In this document: in pieces, positions 35,520 through 41,100 of the stretch
How the letters are laid out: the number at the start of each line of letters is the position of its first letter
How positions within the stretch are numbered: the first letter of the stretch is position 1
Assembly (NCBI GenBank): GCA_973851085.1
Contig: OZ316776.1
Span: forward strand, 9,114,001-9,178,000
Length of the DNA: 64,000 bases
Direction of reading: 5' to 3'
Source of the DNA: Ptychomitrium polyphyllum
Taxonomy: Eukaryota
The notes under the pieces: generated by a model
Databases searched by the model: none
Seen by the model: the letters and a program-made list of their open reading frames with translations, nothing else
Told to the model about the DNA's origin: nothing
Translations under genes and position numbers: made by a program

Positions 35520-36190
35520 ATATGGTAATTGATTCACAAATTTCTTACACGTGCTAAGATGCAAATGCAATTTTCATTCTTGTAATTATTAAAATAATGC
35601 ATATAAATGCTTCATAAAGATATGTAAGTTATTATTGAAGATGATAATATCATCAATCTAGCATTTAACACATGATAAGTAAGCTAAACTAAGTCCATCA
35701 TCTTTTAGAACTTTATCATTTAGTAATAGAATTGATCTTTTCCGTCTTGATTAACTTTCCAAAATTTTATCTTCATTAGATTGTTAATAAAGACTAATGA
35801 GGTGGTGATAATCAAATTGTAAAAATAAGATATGAAAAATTCAAGCAAATACCATTGCATTGTATAATTCTATTATGACAAGTATTAGATATTGATTTAA
35901 CATGGTTTTAAATAAATTAGAGAGTAATTTTCATACATCTACTTCTTTATCATATTACTGAGTACATCTTTCTTTGAAGCATAGTTGTAGCACAAGTGTA
36001 TAAGCCATTAGAAGATCCAATCAAATTTGCAACCAATAAATCTTGATAATAAATTTGAATACCGTTTTCTTTTAAAGCATTGAGTTTGTAAAGCTACCTA
36101 AATATTGGATGATCACCTTCCATTTGAATGTAAATAGGTTTGCTTCTATAATCCACCATAACTTCAAGGCTAAAGGCAGAATAACTTAAT
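35520..36190 (-). pseudogene. Gypsy reverse transcriptase relic of the MTase-carrying element
   Basis: AFSLEVMVDYRSKPIYIQMEGDHPIFR*LYKL..LLVANLIGSSNGLYTCATTM, KDVLSNMIKK*MYENY, FWKVNQDGKDQFYY, KC*IDDIIIF (35649-35660), KHLYALF..LHLHLSTCKKF. It ends at the neighbouring LTR. Confidence 0.85.
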
Positions 36191-37199
36191 ATAAGCAACT
36201 AGAAGCCCTATTCTTTGTACTTTGGTACTCAGAAGATGTAGCAGTAGTTTCAATATTAATTTGTCAATTTCTACAATCTCTTTTTTAACCAATGGAGCAC
36301 CTTTGCAAATTGGTACAACCTATTTTTATAATTGTATTATAAAAATTATAGTACTTAAAATAAATAAATTGAGCAAAAGTTGGTCTAAGGAAAGAAGCAT
36401 GTATGGACGCAAATAAGTGGCGATAATATAAATGAAAAATTAATTAAGCATCAATTGGCTTTTTAGCTTTTTAAAGAAGAAAAGAAGCTTAAAGATCAAG
36501 GCTAGAGGTTATAAGAAAGAAGAGTTTGATAAGTTAGGAAGGTGTCTTTTTTAATTCATTTTTAATTATATTTATACTAGCAAATATAAATAATTATATC
36601 AAATATTGGAAAGAAAGAATTTAAGGTGAATGGTAATTTTTAATTGGGAATTTTAGATGAAATAGTGGATTTATGTATAAATTGATATTTATTGTAATTT
36701 TTCTAATTTGATAAGAATTATTAATATAGACATTTTTATTTTTTCACCTTATTTTTTTGTTGAGCAAGTAATAGCAGCCAAAGACCTAGTGCTTTTTCAA
36801 AGGCAAATTCTTTTATTATAACAACGTGCTTCTATCATGCTCACTTGTAGCTATATAAAGGGCTTCACTACCACAATTTGTATGTGAATTTGGAATAATT
36901 ATTAAATATGAAGTTTTTATAAAAACACTAGTAAATTTTTTTTTAAATAATTTGTATTTTCAAAGTCTGTGAGCCATAGTTGAAAAAACACAACTAAGAA
37001 TATTTTTTGAATGTATACTTTTCCAAAGTCTTGAATCAAAGTACAATAATATGTTGAGCCTTAAAGCTCTTCTATTATGTGTTGCTTCAATTTAAAAATA
37101 TGACTTTAATTTTTCAATCCTAATAAATTATAACTCTATTGCCCCTTAACCATTGCATTTGGACCTTAGAACAAGCAAAAGGCAATTGTAAATAGCAAA

Positions 37200-38165
37200 G
37201 CACATGTAAATAATTGACACTAAATATTGAGATCAATAGCTTGGCTTTAAAAAACATAGTTTGGGCCTTTCGTGAGGTCATGAGCTATTGTGGTGCGTGT
37301 CAAAATGTCCACAATATGTTCTTGCTCATTTATGCTAGGCTTGTTGGAGGTTTAAAAATTAATAATTCCAAACCATATTAAATCCATGTATTCAAAATGC
37401 AAAAGATCTTAGATGTTACAAATCTTAGCAATGCACCATAGATGCCTCCACATTGTTTACTGATGCAAAAGGTCTTCATCATCTTTAAAAACAATCAAAA
37501 AAAGTAAATGATCATCCAAAATATCATTTACTTTATATGCAATGTGTTGTATGATTTTAACAAGTGTTGTTGTAAACACATGAGATAGAACCAAGTTCTT
37601 TAAAAACCATTAGGCATGAAATACATAAAAATCCAATATTGCAACATCTATAAAGGTTGGAGAATTAAAGAATTGATAAATATAATGACCATCTTCCACT
37701 ACCATCTACCATGTATTCACAAACAACGGCACATTATTAAATATATATAATGGCAAGGTAGATTGGTGTGCAAACCACCGCTACATAAGCCACATTAAGT
37801 CTTTCAATAGACTAAATTGAAGGTCACTTAAACATTAACTGGCACCAATATATAAGTAGCCTTAACAAGGTCATTTGGCAAAGAATAAGCCAATATGGTC
37901 CAATTTCTTCAAATCTTCATCACTTATAAAAGTGACATCGTAAGGATTTTAGTTAAAAATAATTGTAAATGGCAAAACAAAAAAATTACTTAAAATACAA
38001 AACTAATAAACCTGTAGAGGTAATGTCAAGCTGCTTACTTGAATATTAATTTAGTATCTATATAAATATACTGCCTAACCTTGAACTTGGCCTTTATAAA
38101 TGTTGCCAAACTAATACCAATGCCTACAAATAGCTCCATAAGGATAATACCTTTTGTTGGTGGAT
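37200..38165 (-). pseudogene. C5 cytosine DNA methyltransferase domain (decayed) within the retrotransposon polyprotein
   Basis: Motif I ILMELFVGIG (38116-38145), II VRQYIYID, III YDVTFISDEDL, IV LFFAK*PC*G (PC at 37865-37870), VI YIFNNVP (37727-37747), VII/VIII FIDVAILDFYVFHA*WFLKNL, IX KPSINEQEHIVD, X SQAIDL (~37229-37246). The motifs are in canonical order. Confidence 0.8.
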
Positions 38166-41100
38166 GCAATCAAATAAGACAAATAAAGGCAATTTAGATG
38201 AAGTAACTTGTACCTAAAAGATTCCAATAAGGTCACAATGTCTTTACATTGTCTAAGTACTGCTATACAAGCGCTCTATAATGGATATGGATCCTTGTAA
38301 TGTCATGCAAGAACCTGTGATGGTGGTAAATCACTTTTATTTGTTGAGCTGGTTACGTAAGCAAATGTTTCTATTAACAAAATTAGTCTACGATGTAAGT
38401 CCATTATTGATGCAATGCAACTATATATCGTCTTTATTAACATAGTCATAACAACTTTCATAAATGCCAACAAAATGAATTCCTATTTTCCATATTTTTT
38501 AGCCTAAACAAAATCAATCCATGCTTCTATAGTCCAATTGTTTTTATCAAAGTTAAAAGAATAAAGTGCTTATTGACTATTAAGAATATTGTAATTAGTG
38601 GCATTAGCCAACCACATTAAAAAAATAAATATTAATAAAGAAGTCCAAAATCAATGCTAAAAATTAACTACAATAGTTTCTAAATATAGCCCATATAATA
38701 TTCCTTGCCACAAATCAAAGCTATAATGGTGAAAAGACAACGCTTAAGGTTTCTAATTTTTAGGCCTAATTCTTAAACAAACAGCTAATTATTATAGTTG
38801 ATTAAGCACCATAATCTATCATAAGTTGCAATGGAGTGGCATAAGTAGTGATGCTACTTATGTAGCCAACAATAAATACATTATTTTTATTAACCAACCA
38901 TAACACTTTTATTTGCAAATTCTTGCAATTCCAAGCTGCAATGTCAAATATAAAAACCAACCATATTGCCAATAGTACATTAAATGAAGGAATTGGCATA
39001 GTTTGTTGTGAAGTAGCTTTATAAAGGCTAAACACCCTTAGCTTGCAATTTAACCAAAATATCATCTATAGCAGATTTAGTGATTGCTTGAGCTATTGCA
39101 AACAATGTCATAATTACATTACCTTTCAGCATCTTAGCAACCAAGTAAAAAAGTTCACTTGTTTCAAAAACTTGTATCATCAACTCAACATTGGAGAAAA
39201 TAGGCATTTGCAACACTTTGTGAATCAAAGTATATGAGTTTTTAAAAGCAACCTTTCTATCATATGCTAGAGTTGGAATATAGGACAAATCTTTAAGATT
39301 AGCATGTAGAAGGTTAAATTATAAAAGCAATGAATCTTGCTTAATTTAATATATAAAATGATTAAGGCATCCATGCAAGTTTTTTTGACACCATGATCTT
39401 GGCCATTATTTGCGCATGTGTTGCAACTACAACTATCATTTCTTGTAGTCTTCCAAACATATGAATATTTAGTGCAAAGTATATACTCCAATATGAATAG
39501 TTACACAAGACTTTGTAACTTAGCAAAGTAAAGCTACATTCTTAAATTTCTTCTTAAGCTTTGAAAAACTTGGCTTCTAATGTTTTTTCTATCTTTAAAT
39601 AGATCACTTTTTTGGATGCAAAATGAAACAATAGTCTTCACTATGGTTTAACCTACTTTAATGAATATATTTCAATTGCTTATTTGTGGCATTTTTTCTT
39701 GCCTTGCGACTTCTTTCTTCTTCTTAAACTTCTTTGTTTGCTAGCCTTGCCTTTGTTTGAGGCATTTGGAATCGGTTTTAATGTAGCCAACTTTATCACA
39801 CCTCTAATAATATAAGTCTTTTTATTTTAAATATTTGCCAAGTTGCATGTGGTTAAAGCAACTTTCTTTGCCTTAATAATATATGTCATTCCAAAAACCA
39901 TATTAGAAGCATCATGCTAGCAAAGAACATTGTTATATCTTTCAACTTTAACAAACTTTTGTACAAGAGTTGCTTTGCCATTAAAGTTGAAAAGTATCCT
40001 TAATTTTGGCCAAATTTAGAAGCTATTTTTCAATCTTAGACAAAAAAATATGAATAAATTAGCTTTCAACAGATACATCCTTAGATTTCTCTACAAATTG
40101 TATTAAATAACAATAAATAATACATGGTGTGCTTTCTTTGTTAAGTTGGAAGTTCTAAATGCTTTCCATATAATCATACCTTAGGCTCCTATACTCAACC
40201 ATCAAATGTGTTAAGAATAACTGCAATGGATTAAATATTGATTTTTACCTATTGCAGTTAGAGTCGCCTTTGTAGCTATCATCATTTATATCAAGGTAGA
40301 TGGCTCACTATATCCTTACAATAGTTCAACCACTATTTGGTTTCTTTAAACACTATAGGACTCAAATTCAAAATTGCACCTTTTTTATGAATAAAGATGA
40401 ATTTCCCATAGGACTTCCAATAGCATTATACCTTGCACTATTGGAGCAAGTGCTTTTTTATCAATCTTTTATTATCTCAAATGCCTCAAGCTCCATATGC
40501 AATGGTGGCAATTAAAAGCATTGCAATAGTCATTCTCCATCTTATCAAGTGTTCTTTTGCAAATAATAAATTGTAAAGTTGAAAAATTTATTAAAACTAT
40601 TAGCACTCATTTGCGATAAATGGTTTTAAATCATAAAATTTTGTATTATTAAAAACAAGATGGCACCAAAAATTCTTCTACTATGCTCTAACGATTCCTT
40701 TAGAGATAAATACATCAAAATTAAGTGAAATAAGAAGAAAAAATGGTCCTAAAATAAGAGAAATAAAAATAACACAAAAATGACCACAAAGCAGGGTATT
40801 CCGTTGCTAGGTGCATAAAGGCCACCCGCTTCTTGTGCTAGGCCAAACTGCAATAATTGCAATTTGTAGCCTTATGGCACCAACTTGCAAGTCAACCGCT
40901 ATAGCAATCTGCAAGCCTATATAGACCTTTATATGAAAACTTACAACTTCTCCCACCAACCTTGCATATTATATGTATTCTTATTTTCTTAAGAAAAAAA
41001 TATAATTATCTCCTGTTCATTTACAAAGCCCCACACACTATTTCACTGATGATGGTTACAAAAGAAGAATAAAATAAAATAAATTCAACAACTCAAAAAT

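What the first reader, a model, noticed from the sequence alone, without database searches (positions are those of the whole stretch)
35520..41035. Gypsy retrotransposon fossil carrying its own C5 DNA methyltransferase between protease and reverse transcriptase
Seen: this apparently empty AT-rich stretch, translated on the minus strand through stops and frameshifts, gives collinear relics of Gag with two zinc knuckles (~39600-39810), an aspartic protease (LMIDYGA, ~38805-38825), a C5-MTase (37200-38165) and a Gypsy RT (36190-35520, *IDD at 35649-35660). Established: ordinary Ty3/Gypsy pol is PR-RT-RH-INT with no methyltransferase, and cytosine-MTase-bearing retrotransposons have been reported in Symbiodinium and the charophyte Klebsormidium. 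Inference: a land-plant (moss) lineage hosted an LTR element encoding an MTase in its polyprotein, perhaps methylating its own cDNA to mimic or evade host epigenetic control. I cannot tell whether this family is already described in bryophytes. This copy is dead.
Basis: partly seen in the sequence, partly recalled or inferred. Interest (0 to 1): 0.9.

Follow-up and report, generated by a model that had tools for sequence, protein, structure and literature searches.

The report
Dead plant retrotransposon carrying DNMT3-like methyltransferase
This is a long-dead copy of a multi-copy plant jumping gene whose polyprotein includes a DNMT3-like DNA-methylating domain; intact relatives, some in liverworts, keep that domain on the capsid-protein side of a conserved stop codon, so the element likely packs the enzyme into its particles to methylate its own new DNA copies, a design that the papers I found describe only in algae and protists.

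Summary
Confirmed. Window 40558-35522 (minus) aligns collinearly to a near-intact metagenomic relative, L025 (Gag-2xCCHC-protease-DNMT, stop, RT-RH-integrase-PHD): score 2184 against 39-48 shuffled, 41-46% identity in every domain, 57 stops, about 31 frameshifts. The methyltransferase is native, not an insertion: it decayed evenly with its neighbours, sits at the same place in relatives, and is under purifying selection there (dN/dS 0.13). It is DNMT3-like by sequence and fold. The element is larger than reported: repeat A at ~41483-41120 and PPT plus repeat B at 19657-19444, beyond a nested LTR element; RNase H and integrase are lost. These DIRS-like split repeats match KnitGypsy-Dnmt3 of Klebsormidium. 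New points: named relatives in Marchantia and Calypogeia; a conserved in-frame stop (TAG CAR YYA in the closest subfamily) separating Gag-PR-DNMT from RT, likely read through; a C-terminal PHD finger. Enzyme activity, self-methylation, moss identity and descent shared with the Klebsormidium element are untested. This scan noted the same kind of element before in other (peat-moss) genomes.

The parts
41120..41483 (-).
   Evidence: 41367-41120 matches L025 8791-9032, deamination-aware score 196 vs shuffle max 75; start at ~41483 is weakly placed (p=0.027); raised contig depth at 41100-41667
40560..40691 (-). 5' leader relic; the first ~100 Gag codons are missing behind it
   Evidence: score 111 vs shuffle max 55 against L025 574-772; all closest relatives start aligning at 40558-40520
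39480..40558 (-). Gag relic with two decayed zinc knuckles (about 39806-39762 and 39669-39628)
   Evidence: 41% identity over 355 codons to L025 aa 103-479, 16 stops, 10 frameshifts
38443..38861 (-). Aspartic protease relic; LMIDYGA at 38825-38805 faces VIMDSGA of L025
   Evidence: 43% over 139 codons, 9 stops; L025 has Asp_protease_2 at E=2e-4
37190..38145 (-). DNMT3-like C5 cytosine methyltransferase relic; catalytic Cys kept, motif VI Glu and motif VIII Arg lost
   Evidence: 46% over 316 codons, 13 stops, 7 frameshifts; E=4.7e-46 to L025; nests in the L025 clade, SH-aLRT 100
36825..37189 (-). Linker between DNMT and the ORF1/ORF2 junction
   Evidence: aligned to L025 and L013 down to ~36825
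36328..36824 (.). About 500 bp of unrelated AT-rich DNA lying on the ORF1/ORF2 junction; the conserved stop cannot be read in this copy
   Evidence: gap in alignments; no terminal inverted repeat found
35522..36327 (-). Reverse transcriptase relic, cut off shortly after the YIDD motif (*IDD at 35660)
   Evidence: 43% over 268 codons, 10 stops; tblastn E=3e-23
20045..35515 (-). Nested, high-copy LTR retrotransposon (with further nested elements) that interrupts the DNMT element; not part of it
   Evidence: LTRs 20045-20326 and 35232-35515, 84% alike, right one clipped, no TSD; depth 6000-16000 vs about 36
19444..19657 (-). 3' UTR, polypurine tract and repeat B, most likely the 3' end of the same copy
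   Evidence: score 116 vs shuffle max 62.5; 8 control alignments to other AT-rich stretches 38-49.5; B alone 0 of 300 shuffles

Best explanation
The stretch is a dead copy of a multi-copy land-plant Ty3/Gypsy retrotransposon family that carries a DNMT3-like cytosine methyltransferase as a native domain after the protease, and live members likely made abundant Gag-PR-DNMT plus a little RT-RH-integrase-PHD by leaky readthrough of a conserved TAG, so that the enzyme would be packed in the particle and would methylate the element's new cDNA. Shown: collinear anatomy, native DNMT, DNMT3-like fold of the relative, conserved catalytic motifs and purifying selection in relatives, conserved stop, split repeats, many other copies in the runs that hold this DNA. 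Inferred: readthrough (about 0.55 against splicing or re-initiation), release of the DNMT by the protease, packaging, catalytic activity, and the purpose (cDNA that looks like methylated host DNA, or pre-set silencing that limits harm to the host). The PHD finger on integrase likely reads histone tails to choose insertion sites (inferred from the domain family). This copy then decayed by methyl-cytosine deamination, took a ~500-bp insertion at the junction and a 15.5-kb nested element in RT, and lost RNase H, integrase and the B-A part of its 3' end.
For: Frameshift-aware alignment 2184 vs 39-48 in 5 shuffles, identity 41/43/46/43% in Gag/PR/DNMT/RT. L025 ORF1 1369 aa with PF00145, ORF2 1047 aa with RVT_1, RT_RNaseH, rve, PHD. 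Best PDB matches DNMT3A/B by sequence (E=6e-8) and by fold (pLDDT 87, Foldseek E=2e-18). G[WF]PCQG, [FL]ENV, HRxR in 25 of 25 aligned relatives. dN/dS L025 vs L013: DNMT 0.13, RT 0.08, linker 0.61. Stop present at 30 of 30 distinct junctions: TAG CAR YYA in 3 of 3 of the closest subfamily, TAG 19 / TAA 8 then CAA CCC ATG in 27 of the other. 15 of 15 closest ORF1 proteins (41-82% identical to L025) end before RT. UAG CAR YYA is the TMV-type readthrough signal active in plants (PMC13517186, passage). DNMT and RT trees both group the two subfamilies with liverwort sequences. 1317 and 1516 contigs from the runs holding the window DNA cover all 30 bins of L025. 886 of 1660 differences are C>T or G>A, higher in CG/CHG (0.52/0.51) than CHH (0.36).
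Against: No direct Pfam or PDB hit for the window sequence. The stop and its context are not readable in this copy. The larger subfamily has CAA CCC, not CAR YYA, and an ATG follows within 3-5 codons in it and in L013 and L061, which suits re-initiation or a spliced pol mRNA; the TAG is preceded by pyrimidines and could be a splice acceptor. Four partial Marchantia gene models run on into RT/RH pieces. The Klebsormidium enzyme gave no methylation in yeast. dN/dS rests on one pair. No TSD found for the window copy. Trees are quick searches with midpoint roots and no host DNMT3.
Confidence: 0.6

Rival explanations
1. Same anatomy, but RT-RH-integrase is made by splicing to the TAG as acceptor or by re-initiation at the nearby ATG, not by readthrough; the DNMT still travels with Gag-PR.
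For: ATG 3 codons after the stop in 25 of 27 junctions of the larger subfamily and 5 codons after it in L013 and L061; pyrimidine run before the TAG. Plant LTR elements with GAG-PROT in one ORF and the rest in a second are known (PMC6317226, passage).
Against: L025, otherwise intact, has GTG at that place and its first ORF2 Met lies inside RT; CAR after the stop is kept in 29 of 30 junctions; related lineages have one open frame through the same place (P0061, P0064, P0066-68).
Confidence: 0.25
2. The domain is kept for binding, not catalysis on cDNA (for instance binding element RNA/DNA, or methylating RNA or host DNA in trans), or it dampens the element's own activity.
For: No activity of KnitGypsy-Dnmt3 in yeast, inconclusive; the 2018 paper lists RNA binding and self-slowing as options (discussion).
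Against: All catalytic motifs are conserved in 25 of 25 relatives; related DIRS-borne Dnmt3 enzymes methylate CG de novo.
Confidence: 0.12
3. The MTase segment is an independent insertion or a captured host/bacterial pseudogene in this one copy.
For: An insertion does lie between DNMT and RT in this copy; the only phage hit was a cytosine methylase (E=6).
Against: Same position in dozens of independent relatives, uniform divergence across domains, continuous PR-DNMT alignment without a break, congruent RT and DNMT trees.
Confidence: 0.02

Closest known systems
KnitGypsy-Dnmt3 of Klebsormidium nitens (de Mendoza et al. 2018, PMC5890265; seen: abstract, introduction, section 9, discussion, further passages, passages of the peer-review file, species table; figures and main supplement not seen)
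   Same: Gypsy domain set with an intronless, unrearranged Dnmt3-related domain in the polyprotein; DIRS-like split repeats; purifying selection on the DNMT.
   Different: Land-plant hosts; the DNMT is separated from RT by a conserved in-frame stop, whereas the authors state that it shares the ORF with RT and RNase H; PHD finger on integrase (PHD is not mentioned in that paper's text; Fig. 4c not seen); domain order in K. nitens could not be read; no K. nitens sequence was retrieved for a tree.
SymbioDIRS-Dnmt3 and SymbioLINE-Dnmt of Symbiodinium (same paper)
   Same: Retrotransposon-borne C5 methyltransferase; A-coding-B-A-B repeats in the DIRS form; Dnmt3 type.
   Different: Those use a tyrosine recombinase or are LINEs; this family has protease, DDE integrase and 4-bp TSDs.
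EpiLTRs and DAM-LTRs (bioRxiv 10.64898/2026.05.21.726589; passages)
   Same: Gypsy elements with captured methyltransferases and a chromatin-reading domain.
   Different: DNMT4-sister enzyme at the 3' end with DAM and chromodomain in Cymbomonas and Euglena; here Dnmt3-like, after the protease, with PHD and no DAM. The preprint has 0 occurrences of moss, bryophyte or land plant.
TMV-type (type I) stop-codon readthrough, UAG CAR YYA (PMC13517186; passages)
   Same: Exact nonamer at the ORF1/ORF2 junction in 3 of 3 sequences of the closest subfamily.
   Different: Only UAG CAA is kept in the second subfamily; readthrough is not measured; here it would separate Gag-PR-DNMT from RT.

Membership tests
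Ty3/Gypsy LTR retrotransposon | Order Gag-PR-RT-RH-INT | tested here: met
   L025; window keeps Gag-PR-RT in order, RH and INT absent
Ty3/Gypsy LTR retrotransposon | Identical LTR pair at both ends | tested here: not met
   Window has A at 5' without B (p=0.49) and B at 3' without A (p=0.82); relatives have A-coding-B-A-B
Ty3/Gypsy LTR retrotransposon | TG...CA ends, polypurine tract, 4-5 bp TSD | tested here: inconclusive
   Met in 3 of 3 full-length relatives examined (4-bp TSD); PPT relic in window, TSD not recognisable
C5 cytosine methyltransferase, DNMT3-like | Unrearranged motifs I, IV (PC), VI (ENV), VIII (RxR), IX, X; PF00145 | tested here: met
   Relatives 25 of 25, PF00145; window keeps order and the Cys but has lost Glu and Arg
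C5 cytosine methyltransferase, DNMT3-like | Closer to DNMT3 than to DNMT1/DRM/bacterial enzymes | tested here: inconclusive
   DNMT3A/B/C fill the top ranks by sequence and fold but at ~20% identity; no tree with host DNMTs was built
C5 cytosine methyltransferase, DNMT3-like | Catalytic activity on DNA | not testable with these tools
   Needs a bench assay
KnitGypsy-Dnmt3 | Dnmt3-related domain inside the Gypsy polyprotein region, no introns | tested here: met
KnitGypsy-Dnmt3 | DIRS-like split repeats | tested here: met
   L014, L015, L069 complete; L025 has PPT-B-A; window A...B
KnitGypsy-Dnmt3 | DNMT in the same ORF as RT and RNase H | tested here: not met
   In-frame stop at 30 of 30 junctions in this clade; met only by more distant relatives
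KnitGypsy-Dnmt3 | Purifying selection on the DNMT | tested here: met
   dN/dS 0.13 for L025 vs L013, one pair; this copy itself is dead
KnitGypsy-Dnmt3 | Same clade as the K. nitens sequences in RT and DNMT trees | not tested
   No K. nitens protein among the 42 and 45 hits
Phygy / Selgy non-chromovirus clades (PMC6317226) | RT clade membership; short elements; Phygy NCGN target | not tested
   No reference sequences in hand; that paper has 0 occurrences of PHD or Marchantia and no methyltransferase among the passages seen

The most novel reading that the evidence does not exclude
An ancient bryophyte-wide clade of split-repeat Gypsy elements, related to forms in green algae, uses a TMV-type leaky stop to produce a DNMT3-like enzyme at capsid stoichiometry, methylates its own cDNA inside the particle and steers insertion with a PHD finger; still-intact ORF1 copies in Marchantia polymorpha could also add to the host methylome when de-repressed.
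Probability: 0.35. Interest if true: 0.8.

Novelty: new variant of a known kind. Interest (0 to 1): 0.6.

Why it matters
The role of transposon-borne cytosine methyltransferases has stayed open since 2018, partly because the known hosts are hard to manipulate. Marchantia polymorpha, a model with CRISPR and methylation mutants, holds several 1278-1281-aa Gag-PR-DNMT proteins annotated as hypothetical, so the question becomes directly testable in a land plant. The stop placed after the DNMT suggests that the element needs the enzyme in capsid-like amounts, a clue to mechanism. Unrecognised extra DNMT3-like genes also matter for reading bryophyte methylomes and methyltransferase mutants. The window's own copy is inert.

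Tried and rejected
Pfam on six frames and on pieces: no relevant hit (one search used wrong frames). PDB sequence search with the fossil: 0. Word-based protein search with the fossil: 801 candidates, none scored. Viral contigs: none by protein, 1 unrelated prophage-type methylase by pattern. The window's other Gypsy RT does not detect this RT. RH/integrase of this family were sought on both strands of the whole window: only the other elements scored; a 21-aa RH-like match near 19700 (score 38) is at shuffle level and rejected. A GC-rich match of repeat A at 17714-17642 (80 vs max 63.5) lies in GC-rich DNA and was set aside. No terminal inverted repeats for the 500-bp insertion. No TSD for the nested element or the window copy. 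The ESM Atlas gave no result. Run X3 held next to none of the window's words. The pattern scan also returned many chance, non-coding-frame matches, which were ignored. Literature: searches found no paper describing DNMT-bearing Gypsy elements in mosses or liverworts or their readthrough signal; subscription papers are not covered, and the main supplement and figures of PMC5890265 could not be read and may name further species. Marchantia has 0 occurrences in that paper's three readable supplements.
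Full report
Observation. Motifs IV to X of the methyltransferase lie in one frame, 37948-37181. The relic is invisible to Pfam and PDB sequence searches, so significance had to come from relatives. No genome is held for the window.

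Relatives. Many are chance matches; the rest fall into two subfamilies. L025 and L013 match the window's piece at E=5e-46 and 2e-48 (38-39% over 253 aa); a larger subfamily matches at 20-29%. L025 is near intact: ORF1 976-5082 (1369 aa; Gag, two knuckles, protease, PF00145 E=1.8e-13), one in-frame TAG, then 1047 aa of RT, RNase H, integrase and a PHD finger. Independently, phmmer with the fossil piece found 35 relatives among 1.84 billion proteins.

The methyltransferase is native. A frameshift-aware alignment of the L025 polyprotein to the window runs from aa 103 (40558) to aa 1651 (35522), score 2184 against 39-48 in five shuffles, with 42% identity over 1482 codons, 57 stops and about 31 frameshifts. 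Identity is even: Gag 41, protease 43, DNMT 46, RT 43%. DNA identity is 63.6% over 3359 columns. There is no break between protease and DNMT. Of 1660 base differences, 886 are C>T or G>A, more in CG and CHG than CHH, the usual trace of plant transposon methylation. The copy keeps the catalytic Cys but not the motif VI Glu or motif VIII Arg, and YIDD reads *IDD: it is dead.

What the enzyme is. The L025 domain matches DNMT3A/B/C best in the PDB by sequence (E=6e-8; bacterial enzymes 5e-5 and weaker, DRM2 0.02) and by fold (model pLDDT 87; Foldseek E=2e-18), at about 20% identity. Catalytic motifs are kept in 25 of 25 aligned relatives. dN/dS between L025 and L013 is 0.13 in the DNMT, 0.08 in RT and 0.61 in the linker (one pair). 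No tree with host DNMTs was built, so 'DNMT3-like' is a best match, not a phylogenetic placement.

Ends and neighbours. 20045-35515 is another, high-copy LTR element with its own nests; its clipped LTR abuts the cut RT. Upstream of gag, 41367-41120 matches the L025 terminal repeat (196 vs shuffle max 75), and beyond the nested element 19657-19444 matches the 3' UTR, polypurine tract and repeat B (116 vs 62.5; 8 control alignments 38-49.5). B is not found before the 5' A (p=0.49) and A not after the 3' B (p=0.82). Three full-length copies of the other subfamily show A-coding-B-A-B with 4-bp TSDs, and L025 has the same PPT-B-A junction. That the 19.5-kb piece belongs to the same copy is inferred from position and orientation. 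RNase H and integrase of this family are absent from the window. About 500 bp of unrelated DNA sits on the DNMT-RT junction.

Copy number and host. The two runs that hold the window DNA (one sample, perhaps its source) give 1317 and 1516 contigs on L025 at 80% or more, over all 30 bins, with summed depth 588-1598 across the PR-to-integrase region against 36 for the contig holding this copy. The tool warns that this is no copy number; it shows that many younger copies exist. Flanking genes (TIR/NB-ARC, LRR, Yip1, aldolase) fit a plant. 'Moss' was not tested. Named relatives are Marchantia polymorpha (18-member cluster, several 1278-1281 aa), Calypogeia fissa and, more distant, the chlorophyte Hariotina reticulata.

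The conserved stop. Of the loci with enough downstream DNA and a mappable junction, 33 gave 30 distinct junctions; all have a stop there (the printout is offset by one codon for the larger subfamily). The closest subfamily reads TAG CAG TTA (2) and TAG CAA TCA (1), the TMV-type signal UAG CAR YYA (PMC13517186, passage). The other reads TAG (19) or TAA (8), then CAA CCC ATG; no sense codon was seen. Among the 42 hits, the 15 closest ORF1 proteins end before RT, as do four Marchantia ones; four partial Marchantia models run on into RT/RH pieces; five distant proteins have one open frame Gag-PR-DNMT-RT-RH-INT; eight place the DNMT before integrase, between RNase H and integrase where RNase H is present. 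Quick trees put the window in the L025 clade (100) and join both subfamilies with liverwort sequences in DNMT (92) and RT (99) trees; the RH-DNMT-INT forms group apart (representative rows only, 52 and 37 rows, midpoint roots, window on a long branch). Readthrough is my favoured reading (about 0.55); splicing at the TAG or re-initiation at the nearby ATG remain open. Either way the DNMT goes with Gag-PR.

Mechanism. Shown: anatomy, native DNMT, conservation, stop, split repeats. Inferred: abundant Gag-PR-DNMT, minor Pol, protease release, packaging, cDNA methylation, PHD-guided insertion. De Mendoza et al. proposed cDNA methylation for DIRS-borne Dnmt3 and showed CG activity for those, but not for the Klebsormidium enzyme.

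Comparison and novelty. It works like KnitGypsy-Dnmt3 and shares its split repeats, but fails the same-ORF feature, and common descent is untested, so I do not file it as a member. Later papers still cite only streptophyte algae/'streptophytes' and dinoflagellates via the 2018 study (PMC12344493 and the 2026 preprint, passages). My searches found no description in bryophytes; closed papers and the unread main supplement could hold one. Earlier notes of this scan report the same kind in peat-moss genomes; none turned up with readthrough or Marchantia wording. Verdict: real, new variant of a known kind, interest 0.6.

Noticed in passing
window 20045-35515: Four-layer nest: an LTR element (LTRs 84% alike; DUF4939 gag at 35000-34500, RT, integrase, chromodomain-like end near 21100) holding a younger Gypsy (26378-33965, LTRs 96.5%) and an inverted pair of related LTRs (21413-22526, 24027-25191).
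   Followed up: partly
P0146, P0159, P0169 (Hariotina reticulata); P0069-P0075: Gypsy elements with the same DNMT type placed between RNase H and integrase, in a chlorophyte and unnamed algae-like sequences; they form their own clade in both trees.
   Followed up: partly
P0157: A related DNMT inside a protein with Copia-type domains (PF13976, zinc knuckle), suggesting a further transfer to Copia elements.
   Followed up: no
P0052, P0090, P0091, P0097, P0098 (Marchantia polymorpha Mp_4g09160, Mp_Vg00370, Mp_Vg00540, Mp_5g06330, Mp_5g06860): Full-length 1278-1281-aa members of one cluster, annotated as hypothetical proteins, some on the male V chromosome; P0052 carries PF00145 with intact catalytic motifs.
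   Followed up: partly
window 36328-36824: About 500 bp AT-rich insertion exactly on the ORF1/ORF2 junction; TTATAATA occurs at both edges (possible 8-bp duplication); part of it has raised depth.
   Followed up: partly
window 42714-45218 (-) and 10403-10768 (+): TIR plus NB-ARC-like gene next to the element's 5' end, and an LRR fragment: immune-receptor-like genes.
   Followed up: no
window 25770-26069: 31-bp tandem array (about 8-9 copies) inside the nested element.
   Followed up: no
L014, L015, L069 termini: Split direct repeats combined with a DDE integrase, TG...CA ends and 4-bp TSDs: how such an element primes and completes reverse transcription is unexplained.
   Followed up: partly
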